This document shows, one piece after another, positions 1,586-64,000 of a DNA stretch of 64,000 bases. Position 1 is the stretch's first letter. Each line of letters opens with the position of its first letter. Position numbers and translations under genes: made by a program. The DNA is from Shigella phage SP18. The stretch lies in sequence record GQ981382. One strand, given 5' to 3'. The notes under the pieces were generated by a model. It worked only from the letters and a program-made list of their open reading frames with translations. It was not told the DNA's origin and searched no databases.

Positions 1586-3565
1586 ATGGCTTTATTATCC
1601 CCGGGCATTGAGCTCAAAGAAACAACGGTCCAAAGCACTGTTGTTCGTAACGCGACGGGTCGTGCGGCGCTGGTTGGTAAATTCCAGTGGGGCCCAGCTT
1701 TCCAGGTAACTCAGATTACAAACGAAGTAGAACTTGTTGATTTGTTTGGTGGCCCGAACAATATCACGGCTGACTACTTTATGAGTGGAATGAACTTCCT
1801 TCAATATGGTAATGACCTGCGTACTGTTCGTGTAGTTAACCGCGACCACGCTAAAAACGCATCCCCGGTAGCAGGGAACATTGAAAGTACAATCGCTACT
1901 GCTGGTTCTAACTATGCAGTCGGTGACGCTATCCAGGTTAAATACAACCAGACTGTTGTTGAAACTTCTGGCCGTATCACCAAGGTTGACGTTGACGGGA
2001 AAATCCTCGCGGTCTTCATTCCGTCTGACAAAATTATTTCCTTTGCAAAATCTGTAAACCAGTATCCCGCTTTAGGCTCGGCTTGGACTGCTGAAATCCT
2101 GACCACTTCTTCAGGTGTGTCTGGCACGATTACCCTCGGGAAAATTGTTACCGATTCTGGTATCCTGTTGACCGAAGCAGAAAATAGTGAAGAAGCTATT
2201 ACCTCTCTGGAATTCCAGGCTTCCCTGCAGAAATATGCAATGCCGGGTGTTGTTGCTCTTTATCCTGGTGAAATCGGTTCGACTCTCGAAGTTGAAATCG
2301 TTTCCAAAGCTGCTTATGATGCTGGCTCTTCAAAGATGCTTGACATCTATCCGAATGGCGGTTCCCGTGCTTCTGTAGCTCGTGCAGTGTTTAACTATGG
2401 CCCACAGTCTGACGACCAGTATGCAATCATCGTTCGCCGTGATGGTGATATCGTTGAAAACGTCGTTCTGTCAACTAAAGAAGGCGATAAAGACGTTTAC
2501 GGCAACAACATTTATCTGGATGACTACTTTGCAAAAGGTACTTCCAATTACATCTATGCAACTTCTCTGAACTGGCCAAAAGGTTTTGCAGGCATCATCA
2601 ATCTGATGGGCGGTATTTCTGCAAACGACCAGGTGACCGCTGGTGATTTGATGCAAGGTTGGGACCTGTTTGCTGACCGTGAAGCACTGCATATTAACCT
2701 GCTTATTGCTGGTGCTTGTGCTGGTGAAGGTGATGCGACTGCTTCCACTGTTCAGAAGCACGTAGTTTCTATCGCTGACGAACGTCAGGATTGCTTGGCA
2801 TTTATCTCTCCACCGAAAGGTCTGTTGGTTAACGTTCCCCTGACCCGCGCAGTGGATAACCTGATTGACTGGCGTACAGGTAGTGGTGCATTTGATACTG
2901 ATAACATGAATATCAGCACGACTTATGCAGCGATTGATGGCAACTATAAATATCAGTATGATAAATATAACGACGTTAACCGTTGGGTTCCTCTGGCAGC
3001 TGATATGGCTGGTCTGTGTGCTCGTACTGATGATGTTTCTCAGCCTTGGATGTCTCCGGCCGGCTATAACCGTGGTCAGATTCTGAACGTTCTGAAATTG
3101 GCAATCGAACCACGTCAGACTCAACGTGACCGCATGTATCAGGAAGCTATCAACCCGGTTGTTGGTTTCGCAGGTGGCGATGGTTTTGTTCTGTACGGTG
3201 ATAAGACTGCAACTAAAGTTCCATCTCCGATGGACCATATCAACGTTCGCCGTCTTACGAATATGCTGAAGAAAAATATCGGTGACGCATCCAAATATAA
3301 ACTGTTTGAGCTTAACGATAACTTCACTCGTGCATCATTCCGTATGGAAACTTCTCAATACTTGGATGGTATTCGTGCGCTCGGTGGCATTTATGAAGGT
3401 CGTGTAGTTTGTGATACTACTAACAACACCCCAGCGGTCATAGACCGCAATGAGTTCGTTGCTAGCATTTATTATAAGCCTGCGCGCAGCATCAACTATA
3501 TACAGCTTAATTTCGTAGCCACTAGCACTGGTGCTGATTTTGATGAGTTGATTGGGCCACAATAA
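1586..3565 (+). CDS. 18: Tail sheath protein gp18
   Basis: 659 aa, the same length as T4 gp18, with matching N-terminus (LLSPGIELKETTVQST); follows gene 17 as in T4; TATAAATA motif upstream. Confidence 0.93.
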   Translation: MALLSPGIELKETTVQSTVVRNATGRAALVGKFQWGPAFQVTQITNEVELVDLFGGPNNITADYFMSGMNFLQYGNDLRTVRVVNRDHAKNASPVAGNIESTIATAGSNYAVGDAIQVKYNQTVVETSGRITKVDVDGKILAVFIPSDKIISFAKSVNQYPALGSAWTAEILTTSSGVSGTITLGKIVTDSGILLTEAENSEEAITSLEFQASLQKYAMPGVVALYPGEIGSTLEVEIVSKAAYDAGSSKMLDIYPNGGSRASVARAVFNYGPQSDDQYAIIVRRDGDIVENVVLSTKEGDKDVYGNNIYLDDYFAKGTSNYIYATSLNWPKGFAGIINLMGGISANDQVTAGDLMQGWDLFADREALHINLLIAGACAGEGDATASTVQKHVVSIADERQDCLAFISPPKGLLVNVPLTRAVDNLIDWRTGSGAFDTDNMNISTTYAAIDGNYKYQYDKYNDVNRWVPLAADMAGLCARTDDVSQPWMSPAGYNRGQILNVLKLAIEPRQTQRDRMYQEAINPVVGFAGGDGFVLYGDKTATKVPSPMDHINVRRLTNMLKKNIGDASKYKLFELNDNFTRASFRMETSQYLDGIRALGGIYEGRVVCDTTNNTPAVIDRNEFVASIYYKPARSINYIQLNFVATSTGADFDELIGPQ

Positions 3566-3710
3566 TTATCATCGCTTAGAAAGAATTAATTAGCAGCAAA
3601 ACCGTAGAACCATTATACAGTGCTATAAATAAAAGCATAATCGGTTCTACGGGCTCCTGTGGTTGATTCTGGGAAGCCATTATCTTGAGATGATGAATCA
3701 TATTACCTAG

Positions 3711-9693: not shown

Positions 9694-9975
9694 TCATACC
9701 ATACCATTTAAATGAACTTCTACTCGGCGCTTGATAAGGTCTCTGAAGTTAACATTGTTTTCTTGAAGTTTCAACCAGTTACCATTTTTATCTTTAGTGT
9801 GAGTAGAATAATTACCATTCCACCAGAAATCAGTGTCATATGCTAAGTTTTCATATTTTTTAACTAGTTTGTTCAGAGCATTACCATTAACACCATTTGG
9901 GTATTTGTTAACCAAGGCAATAACTTCAATTTCCAGATTTTTAAAGGTGTTCAGAAGGAAAGTTGCTTTGTTCAT
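9694..9975 (-). CDS. Hypothetical early protein, 93 aa, at the T4 segD locus
   Basis: ORF directly downstream of a PeSL-like early promoter cassette with GGAG RBS; no recognisable endonuclease motif. Confidence 0.5.
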   Translation of the reverse strand: MNKATFLLNTFKNLEIEVIALVNKYPNGVNGNALNKLVKKYENLAYDTDFWWNGNYSTHTKDKNGNWLKLQENNVNFRDLIKRRVEVHLNGMV

Positions 9976-10046
9976 TTTTAAACTCCAGGTTTTGTTTGTT
10001 AACTCAGTATGGAATCATTATGTCTTATCTTAATCTGGTTGTAAAC
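9976..10046 (-). promoter_or_regulatory. PeSL-like early promoter-leader cassette, copy A
   Basis: Minus strand GTTTACAA, 16 nt, CATAATGATTCCATACTGAGTTA, then GGAG and ATG; shared with copies B and C. Confidence 0.7.
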
Positions 10047-25747: not shown

Positions 25748-25811
25748 TTTGTTTTCCTCATGTGCAATTGATATGAACATTGTATCGCACTTCCTTGTGC
25801 TTGTAAACCCC

Positions 25812-34012: not shown

Positions 34013-34083
34013 TTTATTCTCCAGTTGTTTTCATTTGTTGGTACAGGTTTATAATATCATAACCTGTACCAAAGTAAACTGTT

Positions 34084-34452: not shown

Positions 34453-34523
34453 TTTATTCTCCAGTGCTTTATTGTGTAACTCAGTATGGAATCATTATGC
34501 ACTGGCCCAACCCTGTTGTACAC
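34453..34523 (-). promoter_or_regulatory. PeSL-like early promoter-leader cassette, copy B
   Basis: Minus strand GTGTACAA, 16 nt, CATAATGATTCCATACTGAGTTA, then GGAGAATAAAATG. Confidence 0.7.
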
Positions 34524-34537
34524 CCTTTATGAAAAAA

Positions 34538-34558
34538 AAAGACTCCCGAAGGAGTCAT
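34538..34558 (-). terminator. Terminator hairpin overlapping the stop of the 34555-34905 gene
   Basis: GACTCC-CGAA-GGAGTC followed on the minus strand by a nine-T run. Confidence 0.65.
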
Positions 34559-34905
34559 TTGATAATTGTTTTATAGGTCACTTCAGCTGTGTAGAAGTTT
34601 TTGGCTTTCATTACAATAGCTTCACCCTTTGGATTCGCCTCAATCCATTCTCTGGCACGTTTATGTGCTTCCAGTTCAGTAAGCAAACCAGAGCGTTGAC
34701 AGCCACGGTCTTGTGTACCAGCTTCACTTAAGAAAGCGACTAGATAAATTGCGTCGTCATACGGTTTAGCAGGTGGGATGTACACCGGAGGACTCGGTGG
34801 GACATACGCAGCAGGATGATGACCCGGAATTTCATTGTATGGACCAGGCGCGGCATAAGATGCTCCACGTGGTGTAGTAAACGTGTGATTGTATCTATCG
34901 TTCAT
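34555..34905 (-). CDS. Hypothetical protein with Pro/Tyr-rich N-terminus
   Basis: 116-aa ORF; hairpin plus T-run terminator overlaps its stop on the minus strand. Confidence 0.5.
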   Translation of the reverse strand: MNDRYNHTFTTPRGASYAAPGPYNEIPGHHPAAYVPPSPPVYIPPAKPYDDAIYLVAFLSEAGTQDRGCQRSGLLTELEAHKRAREWIEANPKGEAIVMKAKNFYTAEVTYKTIIK

Positions 34906-34914
34906 AATATTTTC

Positions 34915-34947
34915 CTAGAAAAAAGGGACTCCGAAGAGTCCCTGAAC
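34915..34947 (-). terminator. Terminator hairpin downstream of the 53-aa basic ORF
   Basis: GGGACT-CCGAAG-AGTCCC followed on the minus strand by TTTTTT. Confidence 0.6.
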
Positions 34948-37750: not shown

Positions 37751-37992
37751 TGAATATACACTCGCTGCGCTTCAACCAGACCGTCAGAACCCAATTTCAG
37801 TTGGGTCAACTGATCACCACCTTTTAGAGTAATTTTCGGATTAATGACAATCATAAAACTGCGTGCAGATTCCTGAATAACTTGCAAAGTCGCAGCAGGG
37901 AATCGCTCTGATACGTGATTAATCATCGCTTGAGCAAATGCCTTCACTTTTTCGTGGAACTCTTCAACAGTAATTGGGGTTTCGCTAAGCAT
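37747..37992 (-). CDS. Hypothetical protein (cd.x-like)
   Basis: 81-aa ORF with 4-nt overlaps to both neighbours. Confidence 0.5.
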   Translation of the reverse strand: MLSETPITVEEFHEKVKAFAQAMINHVSERFPAATLQVIQESARSFMIVINPKITLKGGDQLTQLKLGSDGLVEAQRVYIQ

Positions 37993-38534
37993 CAGATTGT
38001 CTCCTGTTTTACTTGTTTAATGATAGAAGCTTTTGTGATATCGCCTTTGATAATATAGCAATCTTCTGCAGTACCACGGTTTAACAGACGCTCTGCTTCG
38101 CCTTCCGCTCGCTCTTTTGACACATGACGAGAGTTAATCTCAATCTTGCCATTTTTAACCACAAGCAATTTCCAAACTGATGCAAGTTTCACTGGCACAG
38201 GTTCAACTTCTGGCTTAACACCAACTTCTGCCCGGATGAAATAATCAAATTCATCAGACAATGGACCAGCAGAAACAAACATTGCTCCATGATGCCTGTT
38301 TTCTGCGCCAGATATTTTTGCCAAATCCACAAAATCATTTTCATCAATCAAACGTATCTCACAAACTTTTCTTCCACCGCTCGCGGTATCAGGTACAATT
38401 TTCACTTCAAACGGAGTCATACCGATGTATTTGGCAATTTGGTAATTAGCTGCCCAGCCGCCGGCAATAAACTGTTTTTTGGCATTTTCAGATACGAATT
38501 TGTAAAACTTGCCTTCTTCAAAGAAATTACTCAT
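37992..38534 (-). CDS. Hypothetical protein sharing an N-terminal motif with the 50652-51020 gene
   Basis: 180 aa; N-terminal GKFYKFVSENAKKQFIAGG resembles GKFYVLDPAAKKQFIAGS in the 122-aa protein at 50652-51020. Confidence 0.55.
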   Translation of the reverse strand: MSNFFEEGKFYKFVSENAKKQFIAGGWAANYQIAKYIGMTPFEVKIVPDTASGGRKVCEIRLIDENDFVDLAKISGAENRHHGAMFVSAGPLSDEFDYFIRAEVGVKPEVEPVPVKLASVWKLLVVKNGKIEINSRHVSKERAEGEAERLLNRGTAEDCYIIKGDITKASIIKQVKQETI

Positions 38535-38594
38535 TTTGTTTTCCTCATGTGTTGATGAAATTCATTATACACCATCCGTGGTGAAAGTAAACAC

Positions 38595-39410: not shown

Positions 39411-41272
<1,862 letters not shown>

Positions 41273-41439
41273 AATAATTTCCTCAAATTTTATAATCCGT
41301 GGGAGCATTATACTCTGCTCCCATAAGTTTGTACACTACTTTCCAAAAATACCATTTATACACATGCTAAGCACGATTCCAAAACAAAAGCATGTAAAGC
41401 CAAACAGAATGACATCCGACCCATCGATACAAGACTCAA

Positions 41440-42587: not shown

Positions 42588-42821
42588 TTAGTAGCGGTTG
42601 TAACCTCTAGGACCAAAAGAGTTGGCACCCAGGCGTTCATCTTTCTTTTTGGCTCTTGCTCTAAACCCAGAATCACCTGTTTGAGCTTTCAGTTCTTTTA
42701 ACAATTTGGCCTTCAGGTCAGTAATGAAACCAATCCGGCGGTCTCCCTTGTAGACATAGATTCCGTCATTACTGTCACCATATGCCTGTGTAACTCTTTC
42801 ATTTGTAATTAAGTTTAACAT
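42588..42821 (-). CDS. Hypothetical protein, partial paralogue of the alc N-terminus
   Basis: 77 aa; AYGDSNDGIYVYKGDRRIGFITDLKAKL versus alc DVYGDRHDGIYVYKGSKNVGFLTDLRKKL; PeSL-like cassette upstream. Confidence 0.55.
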   Translation of the reverse strand: MLNLITNERVTQAYGDSNDGIYVYKGDRRIGFITDLKAKLLKELKAQTGDSGFRARAKKKDERLGANSFGPRGYNRY

Positions 42822-42880
42822 GTTTTAGTCCTCATCAGTAGTTGATGGAACCATTATGTATAGAAAGAAGGGGCTTGTAC
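42822..42880 (-). promoter_or_regulatory. PeSL-like early promoter-leader cassette, copy E (variant leader)
   Basis: Minus strand GTGTACAA, 16 nt, CATAATGGTTCCATCAACTACTGATGAGGA, then ATG. Confidence 0.65.
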
Positions 42881-42891
42881 ACCCCTTTTTA

Positions 42892-48064: not shown

Positions 48065-49726
<1,662 letters not shown>

Positions 49727-50078: not shown

Positions 50079-50318
50079 TCACGCTTTCTTAGCAACTTTC
50101 CAGTCAGCTTTAAATTGGTCAACGTCAGAGTGATGAATCCAGAAACCAGATGAGCTACCATCTTCATAAAGAGGACAACCATCACACTCATCTTTCCAAC
50201 CCATCGCGCATAAAGTTTCTTCAGCTTTTTCCAGAGCTTCTGGATTGTTACCCTGGATTGTGAAGTACCATTTGCCTTTAACTTCTGAATCTTTGATGCT
50301 CTCACGTTGTAATTTCAT
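50079..50318 (-). CDS. Hypothetical early protein downstream of a PeSL-like cassette
   Basis: 79 aa; GGAGAATAAAATG start context; conserved cassette upstream. Confidence 0.6.
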   Translation of the reverse strand: MKLQRESIKDSEVKGKWYFTIQGNNPEALEKAEETLCAMGWKDECDGCPLYEDGSSSGFWIHHSDVDQFKADWKVAKKA

Positions 50319-50390
50319 TTTATTCTCCAGGGTTTTAGTTGTTAACTCAGTATGGGACCATTATGTCATAGCCCCATTTGGTTGTACACT
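50319..50390 (-). promoter_or_regulatory. PeSL-like early promoter-leader cassette, copy C
   Basis: Minus strand GTGTACAA, 16 nt, CATAATGGTCCCATACTGAGTTA, then GGAGAATAAAATG. Confidence 0.7.
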
Positions 50391-50395
50391 ACTTT

Positions 50396-50662
50396 TTAAA
50401 TTTTATCAAGCCATTTGCCAAGTTTAATCATTTCCTTGGTGGCTTTTTCCATACTTCTGAACTTAACTAATAAAGGATGAGTATCAACACCCATAACAAG
50501 ATTGGTTGCAAGACTGTGCTCACCCACAAGCCACAATGAGTATGTTTGAACATCGAGACCATAATTTCTGTCTTTATGTAAACGTACACCCATTACTTCA
50601 AATTGTTCGCTTGCTTTTTCTACTGCATCCAGGAAATCATCTTTAGTCATGTTAGACCTCAA
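50396..50662 (-). CDS. Hypothetical protein
   Basis: 88-aa ORF overlapping the start region of its upstream neighbour. Confidence 0.5.
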   Translation of the reverse strand: MRSNMTKDDFLDAVEKASEQFEVMGVRLHKDRNYGLDVQTYSLWLVGEHSLATNLVMGVDTHPLLVKFRSMEKATKEMIKLGKWLDKI

Positions 50663-51020
50663 AAGTTGCTTTAATCAAGGCAATAACTTCCGCGGCATTT
50701 TTATAATTTACCTGCACATGAATGGTTTGGGTATCAACATCAGGAGCATCACCATCAACTTCCAGGAAGTGACAGAATTCCCATTCAGCGAGTTCAAAGT
50801 ACTCATCAACATCACCCATACTATTCAGGATGGTGCCATCTTTCATTTCAACTTTTTCAACAAAATAATCACCTTCAATATAACACATATCCAGGACTTT
50901 GAAGGAATTGCCATGCTGTTCCATTAACTTGACCATGCACGAATTATCATCAGGACTACCAGCGATGAATTGTTTTTTAGCAGCAGGGTCTAATACGTAA
51001 AATTTACCAGTTTCCATCAT
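50652..51020 (-). CDS. Hypothetical acidic protein, paralogue of 51083-51445
   Basis: 122 aa; GDVDEYFELAEWEFCHF and AEVIALIKATFEV align with the neighbouring paralogue; cassette-like promoter upstream. Confidence 0.6.
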   Translation of the reverse strand: MMETGKFYVLDPAAKKQFIAGSPDDNSCMVKLMEQHGNSFKVLDMCYIEGDYFVEKVEMKDGTILNSMGDVDEYFELAEWEFCHFLEVDGDAPDVDTQTIHVQVNYKNAAEVIALIKATFEV

Positions 51021-51080
51021 TTTATTTTCCTCATGTAGTTGATAGGTCTATAATAACATAATCATAGACCCGTTGTAAAC
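51021..51080 (-). promoter_or_regulatory. PeSL-like early promoter-leader cassette, copy G (degenerate -10)
   Basis: Minus strand GTTTACAA, 16 nt, TTATTAT, then CCTATCAACTACATGAGGAAAATAAAATG; contains a 7-bp inverted repeat. Confidence 0.5.
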
Positions 51081-51082
51081 TG

Positions 51083-51445
51083 CTATTTGAAAGCTTTTTG
51101 TAGAAGTTCAATGATTTGGTCGACGTTATTAGCATCCACAACACAATTAATAGAAACCGCCCCCGAAGGTGTTTTTGTATAATTGGAGTATTCACGGAAG
51201 CAATAAAACTCTTCTTCACTAAGTTCAAAATAATCATCACCCATGCCATCATCATTATAGATTGCACCATTAGCACAAATGATTTCGGTTACATAATCAT
51301 AGCCGTCTGCACTTGATATTGATTTAACTTCAAACCAATCACCATTTTCTTGGATGATGTCGACCATACTAGCATTCGATGAACTAATATCAATGAAAGA
51401 TTTAATACGATGTGGATTGAACTCATATTTTTTGCCGATTTCCAT
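51083..51445 (-). CDS. Hypothetical acidic protein, paralogue of 50652-51020
   Basis: 120 aa; GDDYFELSEEEFYCF and DQIIELLQKAFK; PeSL-like cassette upstream. Confidence 0.6.
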   Translation of the reverse strand: MEIGKKYEFNPHRIKSFIDISSSNASMVDIIQENGDWFEVKSISSADGYDYVTEIICANGAIYNDDGMGDDYFELSEEEFYCFREYSNYTKTPSGAVSINCVVDANNVDQIIELLQKAFK

Positions 51446-51516
51446 TTTTTATTTCCTCAGTTGTTATCAGTAGTTGATGGAATCATTATGCCTTAGCTCA
51501 AAGGACTTGTACACTA
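51446..51516 (-). promoter_or_regulatory. PeSL-like early promoter-leader cassette, copy D (variant leader)
   Basis: Minus strand GTGTACAA, 16 nt, CATAATGATTCCATCAACTACTGATAACAACTGAGGAAATAAAAAATG. Confidence 0.65.
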
Positions 51517-51524
51517 CTTTTTGA

Positions 51525-51552
51525 AAATAAAAAAGGGACCCGAAGGTCCCCC
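51525..51552 (-). terminator. Terminator hairpin downstream of gene 32
   Basis: GGGACC-CGAA-GGTCCC with a T-run on the minus strand. Confidence 0.7.
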
Positions 51553-51557
51553 TTATA

Positions 51558-52512: not shown

Positions 52513-52537
52513 TACGTATTAATTATACTTCAAAGTG
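52513..52537 (-). promoter_or_regulatory. Middle-type promoter candidate upstream of gene 32
   Basis: Minus strand cGCTTCAatcactttgaagTATAAT, with 12-nt spacing. Confidence 0.5.
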
Positions 52538-53157
52538 ATTGAAGCGATAAACTTTTGAAATTCAGAATCAAGATGGGGATTCCATCCTAATTTGAATTTA
52601 TTTATAATGGAAATACCGGTCGTGTGTGTACACGGTAAACCAGTTTCTCTTGCCATAATAACTGGACCAAGTCTGGAAGTTCTATGCGGTCCTATATACC
52701 AGTCATAATATATTCCAGCATTTAACCAAACTAAATGAGCACCTTTAGCTATTGTATTAGGATGTTCCCAAGGCAATAAACCTTTAAGGTGAGAATTTAA
52801 TTTCATATTTATTTTATGTGATTCTGATTTTGGTTTACCTTTTAATGAAGACTTAAAGGTTCCACGAGCACTCGCCTTATTGAAAAACAATGGCGATTTA
52901 ACCACATTATAGTGTTGATGGTAAAACTCTTCTTCTGACAACACATCGTCACACACATGCAGAATTTTAACGGTTGGTTTTTCAGACAATGCCTCAATAA
53001 AACGAGATTGTTTGCATGAAGACCAGTATTCTTTATTATGTGAATCAATTATAACACCATTTTCAAAAGCACAATTATGCTTTGACCCAATGTAAAAATA
53101 AGGAGGCGTTTTATTTTTCAGACGAGTTTCAAATGTAAACCAATATACAACATTCAA
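52519..53157 (-). CDS. Hypothetical protein at the segG-like locus, possibly a degenerate GIY-YIG endonuclease
   Basis: 212 aa between genes 32 and 59; N-terminal VYWFTF...YFYIGSK loosely resembles a GIY...YIG motif. Confidence 0.35.
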   Translation of the reverse strand: MNVVYWFTFETRLKNKTPPYFYIGSKHNCAFENGVIIDSHNKEYWSSCKQSRFIEALSEKPTVKILHVCDDVLSEEEFYHQHYNVVKSPLFFNKASARGTFKSSLKGKPKSESHKINMKLNSHLKGLLPWEHPNTIAKGAHLVWLNAGIYYDWYIGPHRTSRLGPVIMARETGLPCTHTTGISIINKFKLGWNPHLDSEFQKFIASITLKYN

Positions 53158-55396: not shown

Positions 55397-58300
55397 ATGG
55401 CCGATATTTTAAAACCAGCATTCAGAGCAACATCCGGTCTCGATGCTGCTGGTGAGAAAGTCATTAATGTCGCAAAAGCTGATTACTCAGTTTTATCAGA
55501 CGGCGTTAACGTAGATTTCTTTATAGAAGAAAACACAGTTCAACAATATGATGCGACACGAGGATACAAAAAGAACTTTGCCGTTATTAACGATAACCGT
55601 ATTTGGGTTGCTCAACGTGATATCGCGGCTCCGGCAGGGACATTTACCCCTCAGTATTGGTTAGCAACCCGTACTGACCCGAAATGGGAAACTGTTGCAT
55701 CTCCAACTCGTCAGCTTAGCTCGGGTGAATTTATCGCGGTCGACTCAGCTGCAAGCTTTACCACATTTACATTGCCTCCAAACCCGACTGATGGTGATAC
55801 CATCGTTATTAAAGATATCGGTGGCAATACCGGTTATAATGAAATCAAAGTTCAATCGAGCAATGTACCTGGTCAAGGTAACCAAAAGATTGTTCGTTTC
55901 GGTAACCAATTTACTGAAATATTAATCAGTAAGCCGTTCTCTTACAACATGCTTATTTTCTCCAACCGCTTATGGCAGTTCTGGGAAGCAGGTAACGAAG
56001 AACGCGGAATAAGAATTGAACCAAGCTCTGGCAAATATCGTGCACAGGCAGCAGACTTTATTATGCGCCATTACACGACCGCAGAGAAAATTACATTTGT
56101 TCTTCCTAAGTATGCTAACCAAGGCGATATTGTCAAATCAGTAGATATAGATGGATTAGGGCCATTATACCACCTGGATGTTGAAACGTTTGACGAGTCA
56201 AGTTCTCTGGGTAAACAAGGCCAACACAGTATGGAATTCCGTACTACTGGTGATGGTTTCTTCGTTTATAATGCCACCGAAAAATTGTGGGTGACCTGGG
56301 ACGGTGATAATAAAACTCGTTTGCGTGTAATTCGTGACAATGTAAAATTGTTACCAAACGAAAGTATTATCGTGTTCGGTAATGATAACAACACCTCACA
56401 GACAATTAACATCGACCTTCCGACGGGTGTTCGTCCTGGTGATGTTGTTAAGATTGCTCTGAACTATCTCCGCAAGGCACAGACTGTTAATATTAAAGCT
56501 TCGGCTACTGATAAAATTGCATCTTCTGTTCAGCTGCTTCAGTTCCCGAAACGTTCGGAATATCCACCTGACACTGAATGGGTATTTGTTGACTCTTTGA
56601 CTTTCAATGGTAATATAAGTTATACTCCGGTTATTGAATTAAGTTACATGGAAGATACGGTTAATAACGTTAACTACTGGGTTGTTGCTCAGAACGTTCC
56701 GACTATTGAGCGTGTTGACTCGAAGGATGATTTGACCCGTGCTCGTCTGGGTGTTATTGCATTGGCTAACCAGGCTCAGGCTAACGTTGACCATGAAAAT
56801 AACCCTGAAAAAGAATTAGCAATTACCCCGCAGACTTTAGCTAACCGTGTGGCTACTGAATCACGTCGTGGTATTGCACGAATTGCTAACACTGCACAGG
56901 TGAACCAGGATACGACTTTTGCTTTCCAGGATGACATCATCATCTCTCCGAAAAAGTTAAACGAACGTACAGCTACAGAAACAAGACGTGGGCTCGCAGA
57001 AATTGCCACACAGCAAGAAACTGATGCAGGCACTGATGATACTACCATCATCACTCCGCGCAAGCTACAAGCTCGTCAGGGCTCCGAAAGCTTATCTGGT
57101 ATCGTTAAGTATGTTCCTACTACCGGGACTACTCCAGCAGCAAGCCGTATAACGGTTGGGACAAACGTTTATAATAAAAATACAACCACTCTGGTAATTT
57201 CTCCGAAAGCTTTGGACCAATATAAAGCTGACCAGAATAACCAAGGTGCTGTATATCTGGCTACTCAGTCAGAAGTTAACGCGGGTGCAACAAATACAGG
57301 ATTCAGTAACTCGGTCGTGACTCCGGAAACATTAGGCGCACGCAGAGCAACAGATTCAAACCATGGTTTAATCGAGATTGCAACTCAGGTTGAAACTAAT
57401 GCAGGAACCGATTATACCAGAGCTGTGACTCCTAAAACGTTAAATGACCGTAAAGCAACAGAATCATTATCCGGCATAGCCGAGATTGCTACGCAATCAG
57501 AATTTGATACTGGCACTGATGATACTCGTATCGCAACGCCATTAAAAATTAAAACTAGACTTAATAATACTGCTCGTACTTCTGTTATTGCAGCAAGTGG
57601 TTTAGTAGAAACAGGGACGCTCTGGGACCATTATACGCTGAATATTCTTGAAGCAAATGAGACTCAACGTGGCACCGCACGACTGGCAACTCAACTTGAA
57701 GTTAATACCGGCACCGACGACAAAACAATCGTTACTCCGCTTAAGTTGATGTCGAAAAAAGCCACAGAAGGCACCGAAGGTATAGTTCGCATCGCTACTC
57801 GCGCAGAAACTATCGCAGGAACAAGTTCGATTCTGGCTGTTTCTCCTGTTAGTCTGAAATGGATTGCACAGTCCGAACCAACATGGGCGGCAACCACGAC
57901 GACCCGCGGCTTTGCTAAGATGTCTGAAGGCGCAATTACTTTTGTCGGTAATGCAACTGCAGGTTCGACCCAGGCTCTTGACCTGTACGAGAAAAATAGC
58001 TATGCTATCTCTCCGTATGAGTTAAACAAAACCCTTGGTAACTTCCTGCCGCGTCTGGCTAAAGCAGCAGACTCGGATAAACTGGATAACCTGGATAGTA
58101 CACAGTTCGTCAGGAGAGATATTGACCAGACAGTTGAAGGAACATTAACCCTTCGTAAAAACATCAGAATCGATGGCCAGTTAACTACAGGTGGTACAGG
58201 TGAGTTTGGTGGTTCTTTAGCTGCTAATTCTACATTTACTATTCGTAATACAGGTGCTTCAACTCGTTTGATATTTGAAAAAGGACCACAAACTGGAAAT

Positions 58301-59296
58301 AACCCGTTTCAAACCATGAATATCCGAGTATGGGGTAACCAATTCGCTGGTGGTTCTGATACAAGTCGTTCTACGATATTTGAAGTTGGCGATGAAACAT
58401 CCAACCATTTTTATTCTCAACGGAATAATCTTGGTAATATTACTTTTAGTATCAACGGCACAGTTCAACCGATTAACGTTAATGCATCCGGAACATTGAA
58501 TGCTAATGGGGTGGCAACATTTGGACGTTCAGTGACCGCACAGGGTGAATTTATAACCTATAGTGCAAACGCATTTAGAGCTATTAATGGACAGTATGGG
58601 TTCTTTATTCGTAATGATAACTCGAACATCTATTTCATGCTTACAAATGCAAATGACCAGACTGGTGGCTTTAACGGATTAAGACCATTAGCTATTAGTA
58701 ATACATCTGGCCAAGTAACGATTGGTGAAAGCTTAATCATTGCCAAAGGTGCTACTATAAATTTGGGTGGTTTAACGGTTAATTCAAGAATTCGTTCACA
58801 AGGTACTAAACCTGCTGACCTTTATTCGAGAAAACCTAATGCCGATAATACAGGCTTCTGGTCCGTTGAAGTTAATGATTCAGCTACATATAATCAGTTC
58901 CCGGGTTATTTCAAAATGGTCGAAAAGACTAACGAAGTAACTGGTCTGCCTTATTTGGAGCGTGGTGAAGAAGTTAAATCACCTGGCACATTGACTCAGT
59001 TTGGTAACACGCTGAATTCACTCTATCAAGACTGGATTACTTATCCGAATACTGCTAATGCAAGCACCACTCGTTGGACTCGTACATGGCAGCAGAACAA
59101 AAACGCATGGTCTGGTTTTGTTCAGGTCTTTGATGGTGGCAACCCACCTCAGCCGTCGGATATTGGTGCATTGCCTGCTGATAATGCTTCGATGAGTAAC
59201 CTGACTATCAGGGATTGGTTAAGAATCGGTAACGTACGCATTGTTCCAGACCCAGTAACCAAATCCGTTAAATTTGAATGGATTGATACACCATAA
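55397..59296 (+). CDS. 34: Long tail fibre proximal subunit gp34
   Basis: 1299 aa with repeated T-E/D-x-x-G-x-A-x-I-A-T-Q fibre motifs; T4 gp34 size and position; late promoter 55359-55366. Confidence 0.93.
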   Translation: MADILKPAFRATSGLDAAGEKVINVAKADYSVLSDGVNVDFFIEENTVQQYDATRGYKKNFAVINDNRIWVAQRDIAAPAGTFTPQYWLATRTDPKWETVASPTRQLSSGEFIAVDSAASFTTFTLPPNPTDGDTIVIKDIGGNTGYNEIKVQSSNVPGQGNQKIVRFGNQFTEILISKPFSYNMLIFSNRLWQFWEAGNEERGIRIEPSSGKYRAQAADFIMRHYTTAEKITFVLPKYANQGDIVKSVDIDGLGPLYHLDVETFDESSSLGKQGQHSMEFRTTGDGFFVYNATEKLWVTWDGDNKTRLRVIRDNVKLLPNESIIVFGNDNNTSQTINIDLPTGVRPGDVVKIALNYLRKAQTVNIKASATDKIASSVQLLQFPKRSEYPPDTEWVFVDSLTFNGNISYTPVIELSYMEDTVNNVNYWVVAQNVPTIERVDSKDDLTRARLGVIALANQAQANVDHENNPEKELAITPQTLANRVATESRRGIARIANTAQVNQDTTFAFQDDIIISPKKLNERTATETRRGLAEIATQQETDAGTDDTTIITPRKLQARQGSESLSGIVKYVPTTGTTPAASRITVGTNVYNKNTTTLVISPKALDQYKADQNNQGAVYLATQSEVNAGATNTGFSNSVVTPETLGARRATDSNHGLIEIATQVETNAGTDYTRAVTPKTLNDRKATESLSGIAEIATQSEFDTGTDDTRIATPLKIKTRLNNTARTSVIAASGLVETGTLWDHYTLNILEANETQRGTARLATQLEVNTGTDDKTIVTPLKLMSKKATEGTEGIVRIATRAETIAGTSSILAVSPVSLKWIAQSEPTWAATTTTRGFAKMSEGAITFVGNATAGSTQALDLYEKNSYAISPYELNKTLGNFLPRLAKAADSDKLDNLDSTQFVRRDIDQTVEGTLTLRKNIRIDGQLTTGGTGEFGGSLAANSTFTIRNTGASTRLIFEKGPQTGNNPFQTMNIRVWGNQFAGGSDTSRSTIFEVGDETSNHFYSQRNNLGNITFSINGTVQPINVNASGTLNANGVATFGRSVTAQGEFITYSANAFRAINGQYGFFIRNDNSNIYFMLTNANDQTGGFNGLRPLAISNTSGQVTIGESLIIAKGATINLGGLTVNSRIRSQGTKPADLYSRKPNADNTGFWSVEVNDSATYNQFPGYFKMVEKTNEVTGLPYLERGEEVKSPGTLTQFGNTLNSLYQDWITYPNTANASTTRWTRTWQQNKNAWSGFVQVFDGGNPPQPSDIGALPADNASMSNLTIRDWLRIGNVRIVPDPVTKSVKFEWIDTP

Positions 59297-59304
59297 GAGG
59301 TATT

Positions 59305-60441
59305 ATGGAAAGATTTATGGCTGAATTTGGACAGGGATACGTCCAAGTTCCCGTGCTTTCTGAAAATAACGCAGTAAGATATAAATTGTCGATTGCTGGG
59401 ACTTGTACCAAATCGCCAAACTATCCCTACGTTAAGTTTCAAGATGAGGCCTTCGGGCCTCAGGACTTCCAGAATGGATTAAACCTTATTGAGATTGACC
59501 CAGTAACAAATACAATTACCGCCACCAAAAACTATGGCTTCACGAAAGACTATGACGTCATTTCACAGGCCTTTGTGACTTATATTAATTCCATCCCGGC
59601 TGGTAGGATTGTTTGTTTGATATCACAGGGGAAATTGAATGCTTCCCAAACTTTAATTGATTGGTTCAGAACACATGGCTCGACTGCATTTCCGGATAAG
59701 TGGTTGATTGACCAAGTTGATACTTCGTATTCGGCTTTTTATATCTCTGGTCGAAATGCAATCGTTAAAGAGCATGTGTTGTATAATGACGGGGTAACTG
59801 TTGAGGATGTATTGACTCCATTGGAAATGGTGTATGACGACTTTGCTGATGTAGGCGGCACAGGGTTCCCTCTGCGCATCGTGGAAGACGAAAACACATA
59901 TTACAGTAATAGTACACAAGAAATAAAACGTTTCCCCACAGACTCTCCTATCACTCCTGCGGTCGATTATAATATGGCACCTGGAGATACTTTTTACCTG
60001 AAGTTTCAGCTGACATATGACCAGGCACTTAAAGACCTTGGAACAACTCAGATGTCTGTTCGATTCTTTAATGGACAGACGATGATTCAGTCAAACGATT
60101 ATGATATCCCATCTACAGGACAAGCAAGCCCACCGGCTGGTGCATGGATGACGTTTGAACGTTATGTAGTTGTTCCACCGAATGCTGATGGATTTACACT
60201 GTACGCAAGGAAGACCGCTGCTGCAGGGCAAGGTGGAGTAAGGAATATTTTCTTTACAGAAATCGCCCGACAAGAAACACAAGCTAAATCTGCAGAAATC
60301 GGTGTCAACGGCATAAGAATGGTTGTAGCTGGAGAACCAGGAAATCTTGGTAATGTCATTGCACAATTGAATGATAAAAATGCGACAAGGTCCAGTCAAT
60401 CTGGATTTGTATTTGCAGCGGAATTCCGTGAAAAAGAATAA
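59305..60441 (+). CDS. 35: Long tail fibre hinge protein gp35
   Basis: 378 aa; T4 gene 35 position and size; AGAGG RBS; UUCG terminator hairpin downstream. Confidence 0.85.
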   Translation: MERFMAEFGQGYVQVPVLSENNAVRYKLSIAGTCTKSPNYPYVKFQDEAFGPQDFQNGLNLIEIDPVTNTITATKNYGFTKDYDVISQAFVTYINSIPAGRIVCLISQGKLNASQTLIDWFRTHGSTAFPDKWLIDQVDTSYSAFYISGRNAIVKEHVLYNDGVTVEDVLTPLEMVYDDFADVGGTGFPLRIVEDENTYYSNSTQEIKRFPTDSPITPAVDYNMAPGDTFYLKFQLTYDQALKDLGTTQMSVRFFNGQTMIQSNDYDIPSTGQASPPAGAWMTFERYVVVPPNADGFTLYARKTAAAGQGGVRNIFFTEIARQETQAKSAEIGVNGIRMVVAGEPGNLGNVIAQLNDKNATRSSQSGFVFAAEFREKE

Positions 60442-60462
60442 GGACCTTCGGGTCCTTTTTCA
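60439..60462 (+). terminator. Terminator hairpin after gene 35
   Basis: GGACC-TTCG-GGTCC followed by TTTTT. Confidence 0.7.
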
Positions 60463-60470
60463 TTATAAAT
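60463..60470 (+). promoter_or_regulatory. Late promoter motif TATAAATA upstream of gene 36
   Basis: Exact TATAAATA between the gene 35 terminator and the gene 36 RBS. Confidence 0.7.
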
Positions 60471-60496
60471 ACTCTTATCTAATAAAGGGGAATAAT

Positions 60497-61156
60497 ATGG
60501 CCGATTTAAGAGTAGGCTCAACGACTGGTGGGTCAGTTATCTGGCACCAGGGTAACTTTCCGTTGACGCCCGTAAGCAATGATTTATTTTACAAAACATA
60601 TAAAGTATATACAGAATTCAATAAACCGCAAGCAGCAGATAACGACTTTGTTTCTAAAGCAGCAGGTGGGACATATTTAAACACTGTAGGGTTTGATAAA
60701 GATTTACAGTTTAAAGACACTGATGGGTATTGGGTTAAATTAGGACGTAAAGTAAACAACTCCCCGATGTCTGCTACATATTCTTTCTCATTTAGAATGA
60801 GCAAAGGTATGGGTCTTGAGACATCGGATGGTACACCGTTTGTAATTTTCGACCCGACTACTGTTATAGGTGCAAACCGTCTTACTGTAATGGGTGATAT
60901 CCTTGGTCGTCAAATTAAAGACGAATCAGGTCGAGTGTTTTCTCCAGGGAATACTCCGTCAAAAGCACAAGTTGGATTAAGTGATGTGGATAACGCAAAA
61001 CAGGTCCAAATAAATAATAGTAACATACAATCTATGGCTGGCGTTCTTTCAGCCCCGAATTTCATATCTAGGAACCCAGGAACATTGAACGAACACGTTC
61101 CTCGTATTGACCAGGTTGTTCTTAGAGGCACATCTGAAGATTTTGGATATTATTAA
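60497..61156 (+). CDS. 36: Long tail fibre distal subunit gp36
   Basis: 219 aa from the Met ([23 protein letters not shown]), co-linear with T4 gp36; AAGGGG RBS and late promoter 60463-60470. Confidence 0.92.
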
Positions 61157-61164
61157 GAGGCATT

Positions 61165-64000
61165 ATGGCTACTTTAAAATCGATACAATTTAAAAGAAGT
61201 AAAACACCAGGAGCCAAGCCTACTGCAGCTCAGTTAGATGAAGGCGAACTGGCTATTAACTTGCGTGACCGCACTATTTTTACTAAATCCGACCAGGGAC
61301 AGATTATTGATTTGGGCTTTGCAAAAGGCGGAACTATTGATGGAGATGTTCTTCAAAACGGGACATTTAACCTTAACGGTAACCAATTTGTTTATGCCGG
61401 TAAATATATTGAATTTTTACCTAAGACCACCGGTAATGGCGCATGGGCAAACCAGCATCTGAATAAAGCACCTATCTTTACGGATTTGAGTTCAACTACC
61501 TCAGTATCAGAATACCACCCTTTGATTAAGCAACGTTATAAAGATGGTACTTTTTCAGTAGGTACATTAGTAAGCGAAGGCTCATTTAGAGTTCATTATA
61601 TTGATTCTACAGCTCCAGACAATTCTAAACACTGGGTCTTTAACCGTAACGGTAATTTTATTGTAGATTCTGGCAATATTGAGGTCCGCACAGGTAATAT
61701 TTCTGCGTCAGGCAATATTAACTCCGCTAATGGTATAGTTTCTGCTCCACAAGTTATTACTAAAAATATTATTCTTGATTCGAAAAATTTCGGACAATAC
61801 GACAGTCAATCTTTAGTTAACTACGTATACCCAGGCACAGGCGAAACGAATGGTGTAAACTATCTTCGTAAAGTTCGCGCCAAATCCGGCGGCACTATGT
61901 GGCATGAGCTTTGCACTGCCCAGACAGGTCAAGCTGATGAATTGTCTTGGTGGACAGGTAATACTCCAACATCTAAACAATATGGCATTCGTAATGATGG
62001 ACGAATGGCAGGCCGTAATAGCCTTGCATTAGGTACATTCACTACAGATTTCCCGTCTAGTGATTATGGCAACTTCGGTATAATGGGCGATAAGTATCTT
62101 GTTCTCGGTGACACTGTAACTGGTCTGAAATATATTAAACAAGGTGTTTATGATTTAGTTGGTGGAGGTTATTCAGTTGCTTCCATTACTCCTGATAGTT
62201 TCCGTAGTACTCGTAAAGGTTTATTTGGTCGTTCAGAAGACCAAGGCGAAACATGGATTATGCCTGGAACCAACAAGGCGCTTTTATCGGTTCAAACACA
62301 AGCTGATAATAACGCTGCTGGCGACGGCCAGACACATATTGGCTATAACTCAGGCGGAAAAATGAACCACTATTTCCGTGGTAAAGGCAAAACTAATATT
62401 AATACTCAAAAAGGCATGGAAGTTAATCCGGGTATTTTGAAATTGGTAACTGGCTCTGATAATCTACAATTTTATGCTAACGGAACTATTTCTTCTATTC
62501 AACCTATTAAATTGGATAATGAGATATTTTTAACTACCTCTAATAATACTGCAGGCCTTAAATTTGGCGCCCCTAGCGGAGTTAATGAAACAAGAGCTAT
62601 CCAGTGGAACGGTGGTACTCGTGAAGGACAGAATAAAAACTATGTGATTGTTAAAGCATGGGGTAACTCATTTAATGCCGCCGGTGATAAATCTCGCGAA
62701 ACGGTTTTCCAAGTATCAGATGGTCAAGGATATTATTTTTATGCCCATCGTAAAGCTCCAACCGGCGACGAAACTATTGGACGCATTGAAGCTCAGTTTG
62801 CTGGAGCTCTTAATGCTAAAAGTATTAATGCCATCGAAAATTTTAAAGTTAATGGATTAAGCACTTTAGTCGGCGGAGTTACAATGAGCAATGGACTTAA
62901 TTTAACTGGCGGTGCTAATATCAGCGGGCCAGTTAAAATCGGCGGCGTCACCAATGCATTAAGAATTTGGGACTCTCGCTATGGCGCCATTTTCCGTCGC
63001 TCAGAAACATCATTACATATTATCCCAACTAATGAAAATGAAGGGGAAAACGGTGCAATAAGCAACCTTCGTCCGTTTAGTATTGAGTTAGGCACCGGTA
63101 CGGTTATAATGGGGGATAAATCTACGGGCGGACCGCTTTTCACGGTCGACAACGTAAGTAAATTCGTCCAGACGGACTGTAGATTCCGTGTTAACATGGA
63201 TTCTGATGGTATTGTTGTTAACGCCTCATCTCAAGCGGCATCTAACTTTATTCAAGGTCGTAAGGCTGATGTGACTAAATGGTATTTGGGTATTGGCGAT
63301 GGCGGCAACGTCGTTCGTATGCACAACTACACATATTCTCACGGTATTGCGTTAAACTCTGATACTGTCGATATTACTAAGCCTCTTAAAGTTGGAAATG
63401 CCCAACTAGGAACTGACGGTAATATTACAGGTGGTAGTGGTAATTTCGGTAATTTAAATACTACCATCGAGAATATGAAAGCCGATATTGTTACCAGTTA
63501 CCCAGTCGGTGCCCCAATTCCATGGCCAAGTGATTCAGTTCCTGACGGATTTGCTTTAATGGAAGGCCAGACTTTTGACACAGGTGCTTATCCTAAGCTC
63601 GCTATCGCATATCCTACCGGTACTATTCCTGATATGCGTGGACAAACTATCAAGGGTACACCTAGTGGACGGGCCGTGTTAAGCGCAGAAGCAGATGGTG
63701 TTAAGTCTCATAACCACTCCGCATCGGCATCAACTACTGCTTTGACAGGCACAACCAATGGTACGGACTTGGGTACAAAAACTGTCAGCACTGTTGATAT
63801 AGGGCGTAAGTATACTAATAACGCAGGAGCGCATACTCACACGTTCTCAGGAACAACTAGTACGAACGGCGACCATAACCACCCAGCTTCACTTGGTAAC
63901 AACGCCAACGTTCAATCAGGTCGTTTTGCAGCATCTAACTCAGGTCAGTCTGCTATAGCATATACCAACAACGCTGGTAACCACAGTCACACGTTCTCAG
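61165..64000 (+). CDS. 37: Long tail fibre distal subunit gp37 (receptor-binding), 3' partial
   Basis: ORF open to the window end; N-terminus [37 protein letters not shown] matches T4 gp37; C-terminal HxH boxes; AAGAGG RBS. Confidence 0.92.

What the first reader, a model, noticed from the sequence alone, without database searches (positions are those of the whole stretch)
50319..51516. Six copies of a ~65-70 bp promoter-plus-leader cassette (PeSL-like), each fused to a different small minus-strand ORF
The same module recurs at 9976-10046, 34453-34523, 42822-42880, 50319-50390, 51021-51080 and 51446-51516. It consists of a -35-like GT(G/T)TACAA, a 16-nt spacer, CATAATG, a conserved leader (CCATACTGAGTTA or CCATCAACTACTGA) and a GGAG/GAGGA RBS, each ending at the ATG of an unrelated or only partly related small ORF. 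This resembles the promoter-early-stem-loop cassettes proposed to drive modular gene shuffling in T4-type phages. Two leader subfamilies are visible, and three copies sit within 1.2 kb, two of them before paralogous genes (50652-51020 and 51083-45), which looks like a recent module duplication.
Basis: partly seen in the sequence, partly recalled or inferred. Interest (0 to 1): 0.65.

Follow-up and report, generated by a model that had tools for sequence, protein, structure and literature searches.

The report
T4-type early promoter cassettes (PeSLs)
The repeated ~70-bp module is real: it is the early-gene promoter, stem-loop and leader cassette ("PeSL") already described in T4-like phages, here in a VR7/VR20-group coliphage, and close relatives show genes gained, lost or reordered with breakpoints inside these cassettes.

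Summary
Observation confirmed. All six modules sit at the stated minus-strand coordinates, each ends at an ORF's ATG, and they far exceed chance. The window holds at least ten. The window is a Gaprivervirus (VR7/VR20-group T4-like coliphage), and the finding lies in the gene 32–frd hyperplastic region.

Each cassette has an A-rich UP tract, a GTKTAC −35, a 16–18 nt spacer, a −10, a leader locked to the predicted +1 and an SD-ATG. Three carry GGAGAATAAAA, the RegB cleavage consensus. Five of the six have a stem-loop: an upstream terminator, or one over the −35 or −10. That meets the published PeSL definition (Arbiol 2010; Comeau 2014). T4 shows the same architecture.

Comparing eight genomes gives five gene orders between gene 32 and frd, with crossovers inside cassettes. 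The window's 51080 cassette is fused to frd.2, and to frd.3 in VR20.

Corrections:
- The frd.2 paralogs are only 31% identical, so the duplication is not recent.
- The similarity lies in conserved blocks, not a uniform 70-mer.
- Many copies are orthologous promoters of conserved T4 genes.
- Only 2 of about 9 indels against the nearest relative touch a cassette.

Verdict: a new member of a known kind, of modest interest.

The parts
50319..50389 (-). Cassette with leader A in front of frd.1. −35 GTGTAC at 50389–50384, −10 CATAAT at 50365–50360, predicted +1 at 50353, GGAGAATAAAA (RegB consensus) at 50328–50318. Stem-loop ATGGGGCT…GGTCCCAT at 50377–50352 encloses the −10.
   Evidence: fold z −2.2; PWM 55.8
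51021..51080 (-). Cassette with leader B in front of frd.2. −35 GTTTAC, 18-nt spacer, −10 TATTAT at 51055–51050, predicted +1 at 51043. Stem-loop GGGTCTAT…ATAGACC at 51071–51045 overlaps the −10. The same cassette precedes frd.3 in VR20 and P479.
   Evidence: (z −2.6)
51446..51554 (-). Gene 32 terminator hairpin (51554–51529, GGGGACC-TTCG-GGTCCC plus a T run), directly followed by a cassette with leader B (−35 at 51514, −10 at 51490–51485, predicted +1 at 51478). It precedes the 120-aa FRD2 paralog.
   Evidence: z −3.2; PWM 53.2
42822..42887 (-). Cassette with leader B. Stem-loop AAGGGG-TGTACAA-GCCCCTT (42887–42868) has the −35 in its loop. −10 CATAAT at 42858–42853. Cargo is a 77-aa ORF resembling the Alc N-terminus.
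   Evidence: (z −2.5)
34453..34556 (-). Terminator hairpin (34556–34532, GACTCC-TTCG-GGAGTC plus T9), then a cassette with leader A (−35 at 34523, −10 at 34499–34494, RegB-consensus SD at 34462–34452). It precedes gp30.8.
9976..10046 (-). Cassette with leader A and no detectable stem-loop. It drives a 93-aa minus-strand ORF lying between late genes 23 and 24.
   Evidence: z +0.8; PWM 49.6
34013..34079 (-). It is the ortholog of the T4 promoter in front of gene 30.7. A 10–12 bp stem-loop (34072–34038) encloses the −10. RegB-consensus SD at 34022–34012.
   Evidence: (z −3.7)
38535..38592 (-). Additional cassette with a B-like leader and a 5-bp stem in the spacer (38583–38570). Cargo is a 180-aa ORF.
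41273..41336 (-). Additional cassette of leader type C. Stem-loop TGGGAGC-AGAGTATAAT-GCTCCCA (41323–41300) encloses the −10. P896 has an extra 474-nt gene inserted exactly at its SD/ATG.
25748..25808 (-). Additional weaker cassette found by the PWM scan, with a B-like leader (ATATCAATTGCACATGAGGAAAACAAAATG) and a GCAC…GTGC stem in the spacer.
   Evidence: (PWM 17.1 against a shuffle maximum of 9.8)
50079..50318 (-). Cargo ORF frd.1 (DUF5417, 79 aa)
50652..51020 (-). Cargo ORF frd.2 (Pfam FRD2, 122 aa)
51083..51445 (-). Cargo ORF, an FRD2 paralog (120 aa, 31% identical to frd.2)

Best explanation
These are T4-type early-promoter cassettes of the kind published as PeSLs (promoter-early stem-loops).

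Proposed mechanism, with each step marked as shown or inferred:
1. Host sigma-70 RNA polymerase starts transcription immediately after infection. It uses an A-rich UP tract, the T4-type −35 (GTKTAC) and a −10, and starts about 7 nt after the −10 hexamer. The sequence features are shown here; promoter activity and the start site are inferred.
2. A stem-loop attenuates transcription arriving from upstream, so each small gene is an insulated unit. It is either a terminator just upstream or a hairpin whose loop holds the −35 or −10. The structures are shown here; terminator activity was measured only in RB49/phi1.
3. The short 23–35 nt leader supplies the ribosome-binding site. In the GGAGAATAAAA copies it also supplies a consensus site for the phage RegB RNase, which inactivates early mRNAs. 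The consensus match is shown; cleavage is inferred.
4. The same blocks recur at dispersed sites: 14 copies of leader A and 14 of the leader B core per genome. They therefore serve as patches of homology for the phage's recombination system. Small genes are gained, lost, swapped or reordered as ready-to-express modules. Comparative breakpoints are shown here; the recombination pathway is inferred.
For: - Identity: the window is a Gaprivervirus, 96–99% identical to CJ20, VR20 and P896.
- Strand and position: 10 of 10 strict matches in the window and 30 of 32 in the P896 genome lie on the early-gene strand, each followed by an SD and ATG.
- Consensus aAAAAgtaGTgTACAa…tATAAT|GATcCCAT matches the published T4-type early promoter features: an A-rich −40 to −44, GTTTAC at −36 to −31, and C at −3 to −1.
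- The 20 nt after the −10 hexamer carry 6.9 bits in P896 and 6.6 bits in T4, against about 7.7 bits for the hexamer.
- Leader starts are position-locked. All 14 leader A copies and most leader B copies begin 6 nt after the hexamer, and leader B sits at the same offset in T4.
- Stem-loops: the excess of complementarity between spacer and leader is beyond all shuffles and permutations in both P896 and T4. The register is fixed. Fold z-scores are −2.2 to −3.7 for five window cassettes. These positions match the PeSL subclasses of Arbiol 2010.
- RegB: GGAGAATAAAA equals GG*AGRAYARAA. The only 3 matches in the 64 kb are all inside cassettes.
- Shuffling: there are five gene orders between gene 32 and frd among eight genomes. 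An identical cassette is fused to frd.2 in the window and to frd.3 in VR20 and P479. Leaders A and B are swapped on the same promoter, and VR7 carries a chimeric cassette.
- Two further cassette-bounded indels separate the window from P896.
- In P896, leader A precedes 14 different ORFs.
Against: - No transcript or activity data exist for this phage. The start sites, termination and RegB cleavage are all predictions.
- One of the six cassettes (9976–10046) has no stem-loop.
- The role in shuffling is not exclusive. Only 2 of about 9 clean indels between the window and P896 touch a cassette. That is not clearly above the roughly 1 expected from my rough estimate that cassettes plus 120-nt margins cover about 5% of the window.
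- The segG and gp250 indels are independent of cassettes.
- Many cassettes precede conserved T4 orthologs at syntenic positions. Vertical inheritance explains much of their distribution.
- Shared exact blocks are only 12–23 nt. That is short for efficient homologous recombination.
- The TH57 record is marked UNVERIFIED.
Confidence: 0.85

Rival explanations
1. Regulation only. The cassettes are strong early promoters with optimised leaders, kept alike by selection on function and by vertical descent. They play no special part in gene shuffling, and the breakpoints seen in them are incidental.
For: Every conserved block maps to a known functional element. Many cassettes precede conserved T4 genes at syntenic sites, and the 30.7 promoter is orthologous in T4, stem-loop included. 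Only 2 of about 9 indels against P896 touch a cassette.
Against: An identical cassette is fused to different genes in different genomes. Chimeric cassettes and leader swaps have junctions inside the cassette. The frd.3 module occupies three positions, always bounded by cassettes. Pairs of cassettes 64 kb apart are nearly identical over about 75 nt while their ORFs are unrelated.
Confidence: 0.12
2. The three copies within 1.2 kb reflect a recent tandem duplication of a promoter-plus-gene module.
For: The two adjacent genes are paralogs, both Pfam FRD2. Both are preceded by leader B cassettes.
Against: The proteins are only 31% identical. Both paralogs are present across the genus and sit in different relative order in TH57. 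The window's 51080 cassette belongs to frd.3 in other genomes, so its position in front of frd.2 comes from a deletion or exchange, not from co-duplication.
Confidence: 0.03
3. The conserved leader is a cis-acting structured RNA element, such as a riboswitch, attenuator or small RNA, rather than a plain 5' UTR.
For: The leader starts are position-locked at the predicted +1 and conserved in many copies. Leader B is shared between T4 and this genus.
Against: There are no Rfam matches anywhere in the window. The leaders are only 23–35 nt and A-rich. The significant structures lie in the promoter region, not in the leader. G·T and A·C mismatches show no asymmetry, so nothing points to RNA-specific pairing.
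Confidence: 0.05
4. An autonomous or non-autonomous transposable element (MITE-like repeat).
For: It is multi-copy and dispersed, and it is found next to variable genes.
Against: All copies share one orientation, that of early transcription. Each abuts an ATG. None has terminal inverted repeats or target-site duplications, and no associated transposase was seen. The internal inverted repeats differ from copy to copy.
Confidence: 0.01

Closest known systems
PeSLs (promoter-early stem-loops) of coliphages RB49 and phi1 (Arbiol, Comeau, Krisch et al. 2010, PMC2839356)
   Same: AT-rich tract, sigma-70-type early promoter, stem-loop at variable positions including over the −10 or −35, SD and ATG at the 3' end. 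Tens of copies per genome, upstream of small ORFs in hyperplastic regions, and at indel or replacement junctions between close relatives.
   Different: RB49 PeSLs have a near-perfect TTGACA −35 and G-run/C-run stems. Here the −35 is the T4-type GTKTAC, the stems are copy-specific, and a long transcript-start block (leader A or B) is conserved. Promoter strength, terminator activity and mini-circles were shown experimentally there and are untested here.
PeSLs of Yersinia phage PST / T4 and of nt-1 / KVP40 (Comeau, Arbiol, Krisch 2014, PMC4122927)
   Same: The consensus TTTACW-N17-TAYWAT fits these cassettes. Degraded or single-sided PeSLs next to indels are described there, as seen here at 41272 and 34556.
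   Different: That paper places the PST stem-loops just upstream of the promoter. Here most enclose the −10, and only two of the six are upstream terminators. Leader A is specific to Gaprivervirus: it is absent from T4 and found only in VR20, VR25 and VR26 in IMG/VR.
T4 early promoters (reviewed by Hinton 2010, PMC2988021; logos in Nolan et al. 2006, PMC1524935)
   Same: UP element, GTTTAC −35, extended −10, C-rich −3 to −1, and consensus beyond the sigma-70 elements. T4 itself has multi-copy leaders (ACAACTATCAACTACTGATACGGATTTGGAGAATAAAATG, at least 7 copies) and the same inverted repeats around the −10.
   Different: This genus prefers GTGTAC and CATAAT, and has the discriminator GATTCC where T4 has ACAACT or TACCCT.
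RegB/S1 cleavage sites of T4 early mRNAs (Uzan and Miller 2010, PMC3014915)
   Same: The 3' block GGAGAATAAAA equals the strong-site consensus GG*AGRAYARAA and lies in the SD of early genes.
   Different: Only three of the ten window cassettes carry it. Leader B copies use GAGGAAA, which lacks GGAG. Cleavage was not tested.

Membership tests
PeSL (promoter-early stem-loop cassette) | Sigma-70-type early promoter: −35 and −10 boxes about 17 nt apart, on the early-transcribed strand | tested here: met
   All six claimed and four further copies meet it. Sigma-70 spacers are 16–18 nt. There are 10 matches on the minus strand against 0 on the plus strand. PWM scores are 17–56 against a shuffle maximum of 9.8.
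PeSL (promoter-early stem-loop cassette) | AT-rich tract upstream of the −35, often containing the upstream gene's stop codon | tested here: met
   The consensus is aAAAAgta immediately before GTKTAC. The stop codons of gp254 and the FRD2 paralog lie within 15 nt of the −35.
PeSL (promoter-early stem-loop cassette) | Stem-loop in one of the published positions: upstream, over the −35, between the boxes, over the −10, or just downstream | tested here: met
   Five of the six claimed copies have one. 34523 and 51514 have upstream terminators, 42882 has one over the −35, and 50389 and 51080 have one over the −10. 10046 has none. Genome-wide the excess exceeds all shuffles and permutations.
PeSL (promoter-early stem-loop cassette) | Shine-Dalgarno sequence and the start codon of the downstream gene at the 3' end | tested here: met
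   GGAG or GAGG lies 7–9 nt before the ATG in all ten. The ORFs are 77–180 aa in the nine cassettes checked; the ORF behind the 25808 cassette was not measured.
PeSL (promoter-early stem-loop cassette) | Many dispersed copies per genome, mostly upstream of small ORFs in hyperplastic regions | tested here: met
   P896 has 30 strict promoter matches, 14 copies of leader A and 14 of the leader B core, all on the early strand, including four leader A copies within about 1.5 kb. Several copies precede conserved T4 genes rather than novel ORFs.
PeSL (promoter-early stem-loop cassette) | Association with insertions, deletions and replacements between close relatives, with crossovers inside the element | tested here: met
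   At the gene 32–frd locus there are five gene orders with junctions at the SD/ATG, within GATTCCAT and at the −35. There are also two junctions against P896. Caveat: only 2 of about 9 indels in the unbiased pairwise list.
PeSL (promoter-early stem-loop cassette) | Measured promoter and terminator activity, and formation of PeSL mini-circles during infection | not testable with these tools
   These need reporter fusions and inverse PCR on infected cells, as done for RB49 and phi1.
T4-type early promoter | GTTTAC at −36 to −31, A-rich at −40 to −44, a −10 with A at −11 and T at −7, and a C preference at −3 to −1 | tested here: met
   Consensus and information profile. Published features.
T4-type early promoter | Active immediately after infection without phage protein synthesis | not testable with these tools
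   No expression data are available for this phage.
RegB/S1 target site | GGAGRAYARAA in the translation initiation region of an early gene | tested here: met
   Exact matches lie at 50328–50318, 34462–34452 and 34022–34012, the only three in the window. A regB gene is annotated in the relative P896, outside the part matching this window. Cleavage is untested.

The most novel reading that the evidence does not exclude
The block that begins exactly at the predicted transcription start may be a functional element of its own, not just shared ancestry. It is AUACUGAGUUA in 14 copies and AUCAACUACUGA in 10 (14 for the AUCAACUAC core), and the second form is kept at the same offset in T4. One candidate role is as the cis-target of the still-unexplained rapid shut-off of T4-type early promoters. 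Another is as a 5'-terminal mRNA signal for early-transcript stability or translation. The PeSL and promoter papers I could read describe the promoter, stem-loop and SD, but not this start-locked block.
Probability: 0.15. Interest if true: 0.55.

Novelty: new member of a known kind. Interest (0 to 1): 0.3.

Why it matters
It extends the PeSL picture to another T4-like genus, Gaprivervirus, with an unusually clean natural example: the frd.3 module sits at three different cassette-bounded positions, and the crossovers are visible at single-base resolution. That supports the view that T4-like phages trade small early genes as pre-wired expression units.

It also gives practical annotation rules for this genus: predicted early start sites, RegB sites and module boundaries. 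It adds no new principle. The unbiased indel list shows that cassettes are only one of several routes to gene turnover.

Tried and rejected
- I first took the inverted repeat around the −10 to be a new feature. It is statistically solid. [quoted passage not shown]
- I tested whether the pairing is RNA-specific by comparing G·T and A·C mismatches on the sense strand. In one subset the count was 11 against 4, but stem lengths showed no difference. This is inconclusive and I dropped it.
- The Rfam scan of the whole window found nothing.
- Global pairwise identity of whole cassettes against ORF starts was uninformative, because the baseline is about 0.55–0.6 for AT-rich DNA. I used shared exact blocks and information content instead.
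- My first PWM was trained on the minority spacer class (n=6) and missed most sites. I redid it.
- The IMG/VR scan for leader A only re-found the VR20, VR25 and VR26 isolates.
- The T4 genome review (PMC150520) is not held, so I could not check whether the leader conservation was noted there or in Liebig and Rüger 1989.
- Pfam found nothing for the ORF at 52519–53157. A direct comparison identified it as SegG-like.
- The strict-pattern hit at 52633 lies inside that ORF with no SD or ATG, and I treat it as chance.

Full report
**What the window is.** The 3 kb around the finding is 96–99% identical to Escherichia phages CJ20, VR20 and P896 (genus Gaprivervirus, Tevenvirinae). The annotation there reads gene 32 (ssDNA-binding protein), several small ORFs similar to T4 frd.1, frd.2 and frd.3, then frd and td. 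In the PeSL literature this kind of stretch is called a hyperplastic region.

**Check of the observation.**
- All six modules are present on the minus strand at the stated coordinates. Each ends exactly at the ATG of an ORF of 77–122 aa.
- The strict pattern G[TG][TG]TAC-N15-20-[TCG]AT[AT]AT occurs 10 times on the minus strand and never on the plus strand. Shuffles give a mean of 1.9 for both strands together.
- The 14-mer CATAATGRTYCCAT occurs five times against 0.00 expected, and leader A (CCATACTGAGTTA) three times against 0.01.
- The six-way alignment keeps 23 invariant columns, so the similarity does not collapse to the two hexamers.
- A corrected PWM scan and the pattern search add four more cassettes, at 25808, 34079, 38592 and 41336.
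- The similarity is a set of conserved blocks, not a uniform 70-mer. The blocks are UP/−35, −10 plus transcript start, and the SD block. The spacer and mid-leader between them vary, and the longest shared exact blocks are 12–23 nt.

**Anatomy.**
- In the complete genome of the nearest relative P896, 30 strict matches lie on the early-gene strand and 2 on the other.
- The consensus is aAAAAgtaGTgTACAa…tATAAT|GATcCCAT.
- The 20 nt after the −10 hexamer carry 6.9 bits, nearly as much as the hexamer at about 7.7 bits.
- Leaders fall into families. Leader A is CCATACTGAGTTA, with 14 copies in P896. Leader B is ATCAACTAC(TGA), also with 14 copies. A smaller type C also exists. All 14 leader A copies and most leader B copies begin exactly 6 nt after the hexamer, which is the predicted +1.
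- Three window cassettes end in GGAGAATAAAATG. This block equals the strong RegB/S1 cleavage consensus GG*AGRAYARAA. They are the only three matches in the 64 kb.

**The stem-loop.**
- Two of the six cassettes (34523 and 51514) sit directly behind clear hairpin-plus-T-run terminators.
- In many others the promoter spacer is the reverse complement of the first bases after the −10, so the extended −10 sits in a loop of about 10 nt. Examples are ATGGGGCT‑ATGACATAAT‑GGTCCCAT at 50377–50352 and GGTACAGGTT…AACCTGTACC at 34072–34038.
- Across P896 promoters the mean longest stem is 5.3, against 3.8±0.16 for shuffled spacers and 4.1±0.22 when spacers are swapped between promoters. The register is fixed.
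- Fold z-scores are −2.2 to −3.7 for 34079, 42882, 50389, 51080 and 51514. The 10046 cassette has no stem-loop.
- I first took this as new. Arbiol et al. [quoted passage not shown] It is the published SL of PeSLs.

**T4 as outgroup.** The T4 genome shows the same architecture.
- It has a multi-copy leader, TACTAT|ACAACTATCAACTACTGATACGGATTTGGAGAATAAAATG, in at least 7 copies.
- The first 20 nt after the hexamer carry 6.6 bits.
- It shows the same excess of inverted repeats around the −10, for example a 12/12 stem at T4 65799.
- Leader B is shared with T4 at the same offset. Leader A is absent from T4. In IMG/VR it occurs only in the VR20, VR25 and VR26 genomes.
- BLAST finds cassette A at 8–12 places per genome and cassette B at 3–7, almost only in Gaprivervirus.

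**Test of the shuffling claim.** I compared the gene 32–frd interval in eight genomes. In the direction of transcription the gene orders are:

| Genomes | Order |
|---|---|
| window, P896 | 32, orf120, frd2–gp254, frd1 |
| CJ20, P479, VR20 | 32, orf120, frd3, frd2–gp254, frd1 |
| TH57 | 32, frd2–gp254, orf120, frd3, frd1 |
| VR26, VR7 | 32, frd2–gp254, frd3, frd1 |
| T4 | 32, frd.3, frd.2, frd.1 |

The junctions lie inside cassettes:
- The window's 51080 cassette, in front of frd.2, is identical up to the ATG to the cassette in front of frd.3 in VR20, and differs at one base in P479. The crossover lies in ATGAGGAAAaTAAAATG.
- The promoter behind the gene 32 terminator carries leader B in the window, CJ20, VR20, P479 and VR7, but leader A in TH57 and VR26. 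The junction lies in GATTCCAT.
- VR7's frd.3 cassette joins the upstream half of the window's frd.1 cassette to the downstream half of the frd.3 cassette, at the −35.
- frd.1 has two alternative cassettes among these genomes.
- Orthologous frd.1 leaders in CJ20 and P479 are closest to paralogous cassettes elsewhere in the genome. This is suggestive of ectopic exchange only.

**An unbiased control.** I listed all breaks between the window and P896. There are about 9 clean indels, and 2 touch a cassette:
- A window-only 362-nt ORF is flanked by twin terminators, with its boundary at 34556.
- A P896-only 474-nt gene is inserted exactly at the SD/ATG of the 41336 cassette.

The rest do not touch a cassette. 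They include a segG-like homing endonuclease gene and the gp250 indel at overlapping start/stop codons. Cassettes are therefore one route to gene turnover, not the only one. Comeau 2014 also concedes this.

- The two neighbouring genes are both Pfam FRD2 but only 31% identical (E = 3e‑15). Both occur across the genus. This is an old duplication, not a recent one.
- Several cargo genes are conserved T4 genes at syntenic sites: 30.7, 30.8, frd.1 and frd.2. Much of the cassette distribution is therefore vertical.

**Verdict.** These are T4-type early promoter cassettes that meet every sequence-level criterion of PeSLs, in a genus for which I found no published description of them. Promoter activity, start sites, attenuation, RegB cleavage and the recombination pathway are inferred, not shown. 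The one element not covered by the papers I could read is the start-locked leader block, and I rate a separate function for it as unlikely but open.

Noticed in passing
window 52519-53157 (-): A 212-aa ORF between gene 32 and gene 59 is 40% identical (E = 1e-45) to the T4 SegG homing endonuclease. P896, VR20, CJ20, P479 and VR26 lack it at this position, where the window has 622 extra nt. VR7 and T4 have a seg gene there. Pfam gave no hit.
   Followed up: partly
window 42588-42821 (-): The 77-aa ORF behind the 42882 cassette matches the N-terminal third of the Pfam ALC family (positions 3–62 of 177, E = 7e-11). By synteny with P896, it lies just upstream of the full-length alc gene. It looks like a partial duplicate of alc with its own promoter cassette.
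   Followed up: partly
window 9694-10046 (-): An early-promoter cassette plus a 93-aa ORF of unknown family sits on the opposite strand between late genes 23 and 24. T4 carries the homing endonuclease gene segD at that position. The module is present in 27 phage records. All other T4-like phages match only the gene 23 end.
   Followed up: partly
window 37992-38534 (-): The N-terminus of the 180-aa ORF behind the 38592 cassette resembles the frd.2 N-terminus (47% over 32 aa, E = 0.002). Its leader resembles the 51080 leader (ATCAAC-ACATGAGGAAAA-AAAATG). Homology may extend from the cassette into the first codons.
   Followed up: no
window 34557-34918 (-): A window-only ORF of 362 nt, absent from P896, is flanked by two similar terminator hairpins (GGGACTC-TTCG-GAGTCCC-T6 and GACTCC-TTCG-GGAGTC-T9). 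This suggests gain or loss by recombination between terminators.
   Followed up: partly
window 41272 / P896 50843-51318: P896 has an extra 474-nt gene inserted between the 41336-type cassette and the 106-aa ORF. One junction lies at the cassette's SD/ATG. The other lies at a translationally coupled GTATGA start.
   Followed up: partly
window 49503-49725 (-): The 76-aa gp250-like ORF is absent from P896 and P479. Its boundaries are overlapping stop/start codons with no promoter cassette. This is a counter-example to cassette-mediated turnover.
   Followed up: partly
window 58100-63700: The tail-fibre gene region is mosaic against P896. Some segments are 94–97% identical, some only 78–80%, and some have no megablast match. 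This is typical host-range module exchange.
   Followed up: no
L001 (VR20) 3368-3631: In VR20 the FRD2 paralog reading frame from the conserved ATG stops after 38 aa, and the record annotates an 87-aa product instead. This is probably a frameshifted or decaying copy.
   Followed up: no
P896 151137-152551 (L005): Four leader A cassettes lie within about 1.5 kb, each in front of a different ORF of 98–147 aa, near the tRNA genes. This is a dense tandem array of promoter-plus-ORF modules.
   Followed up: no
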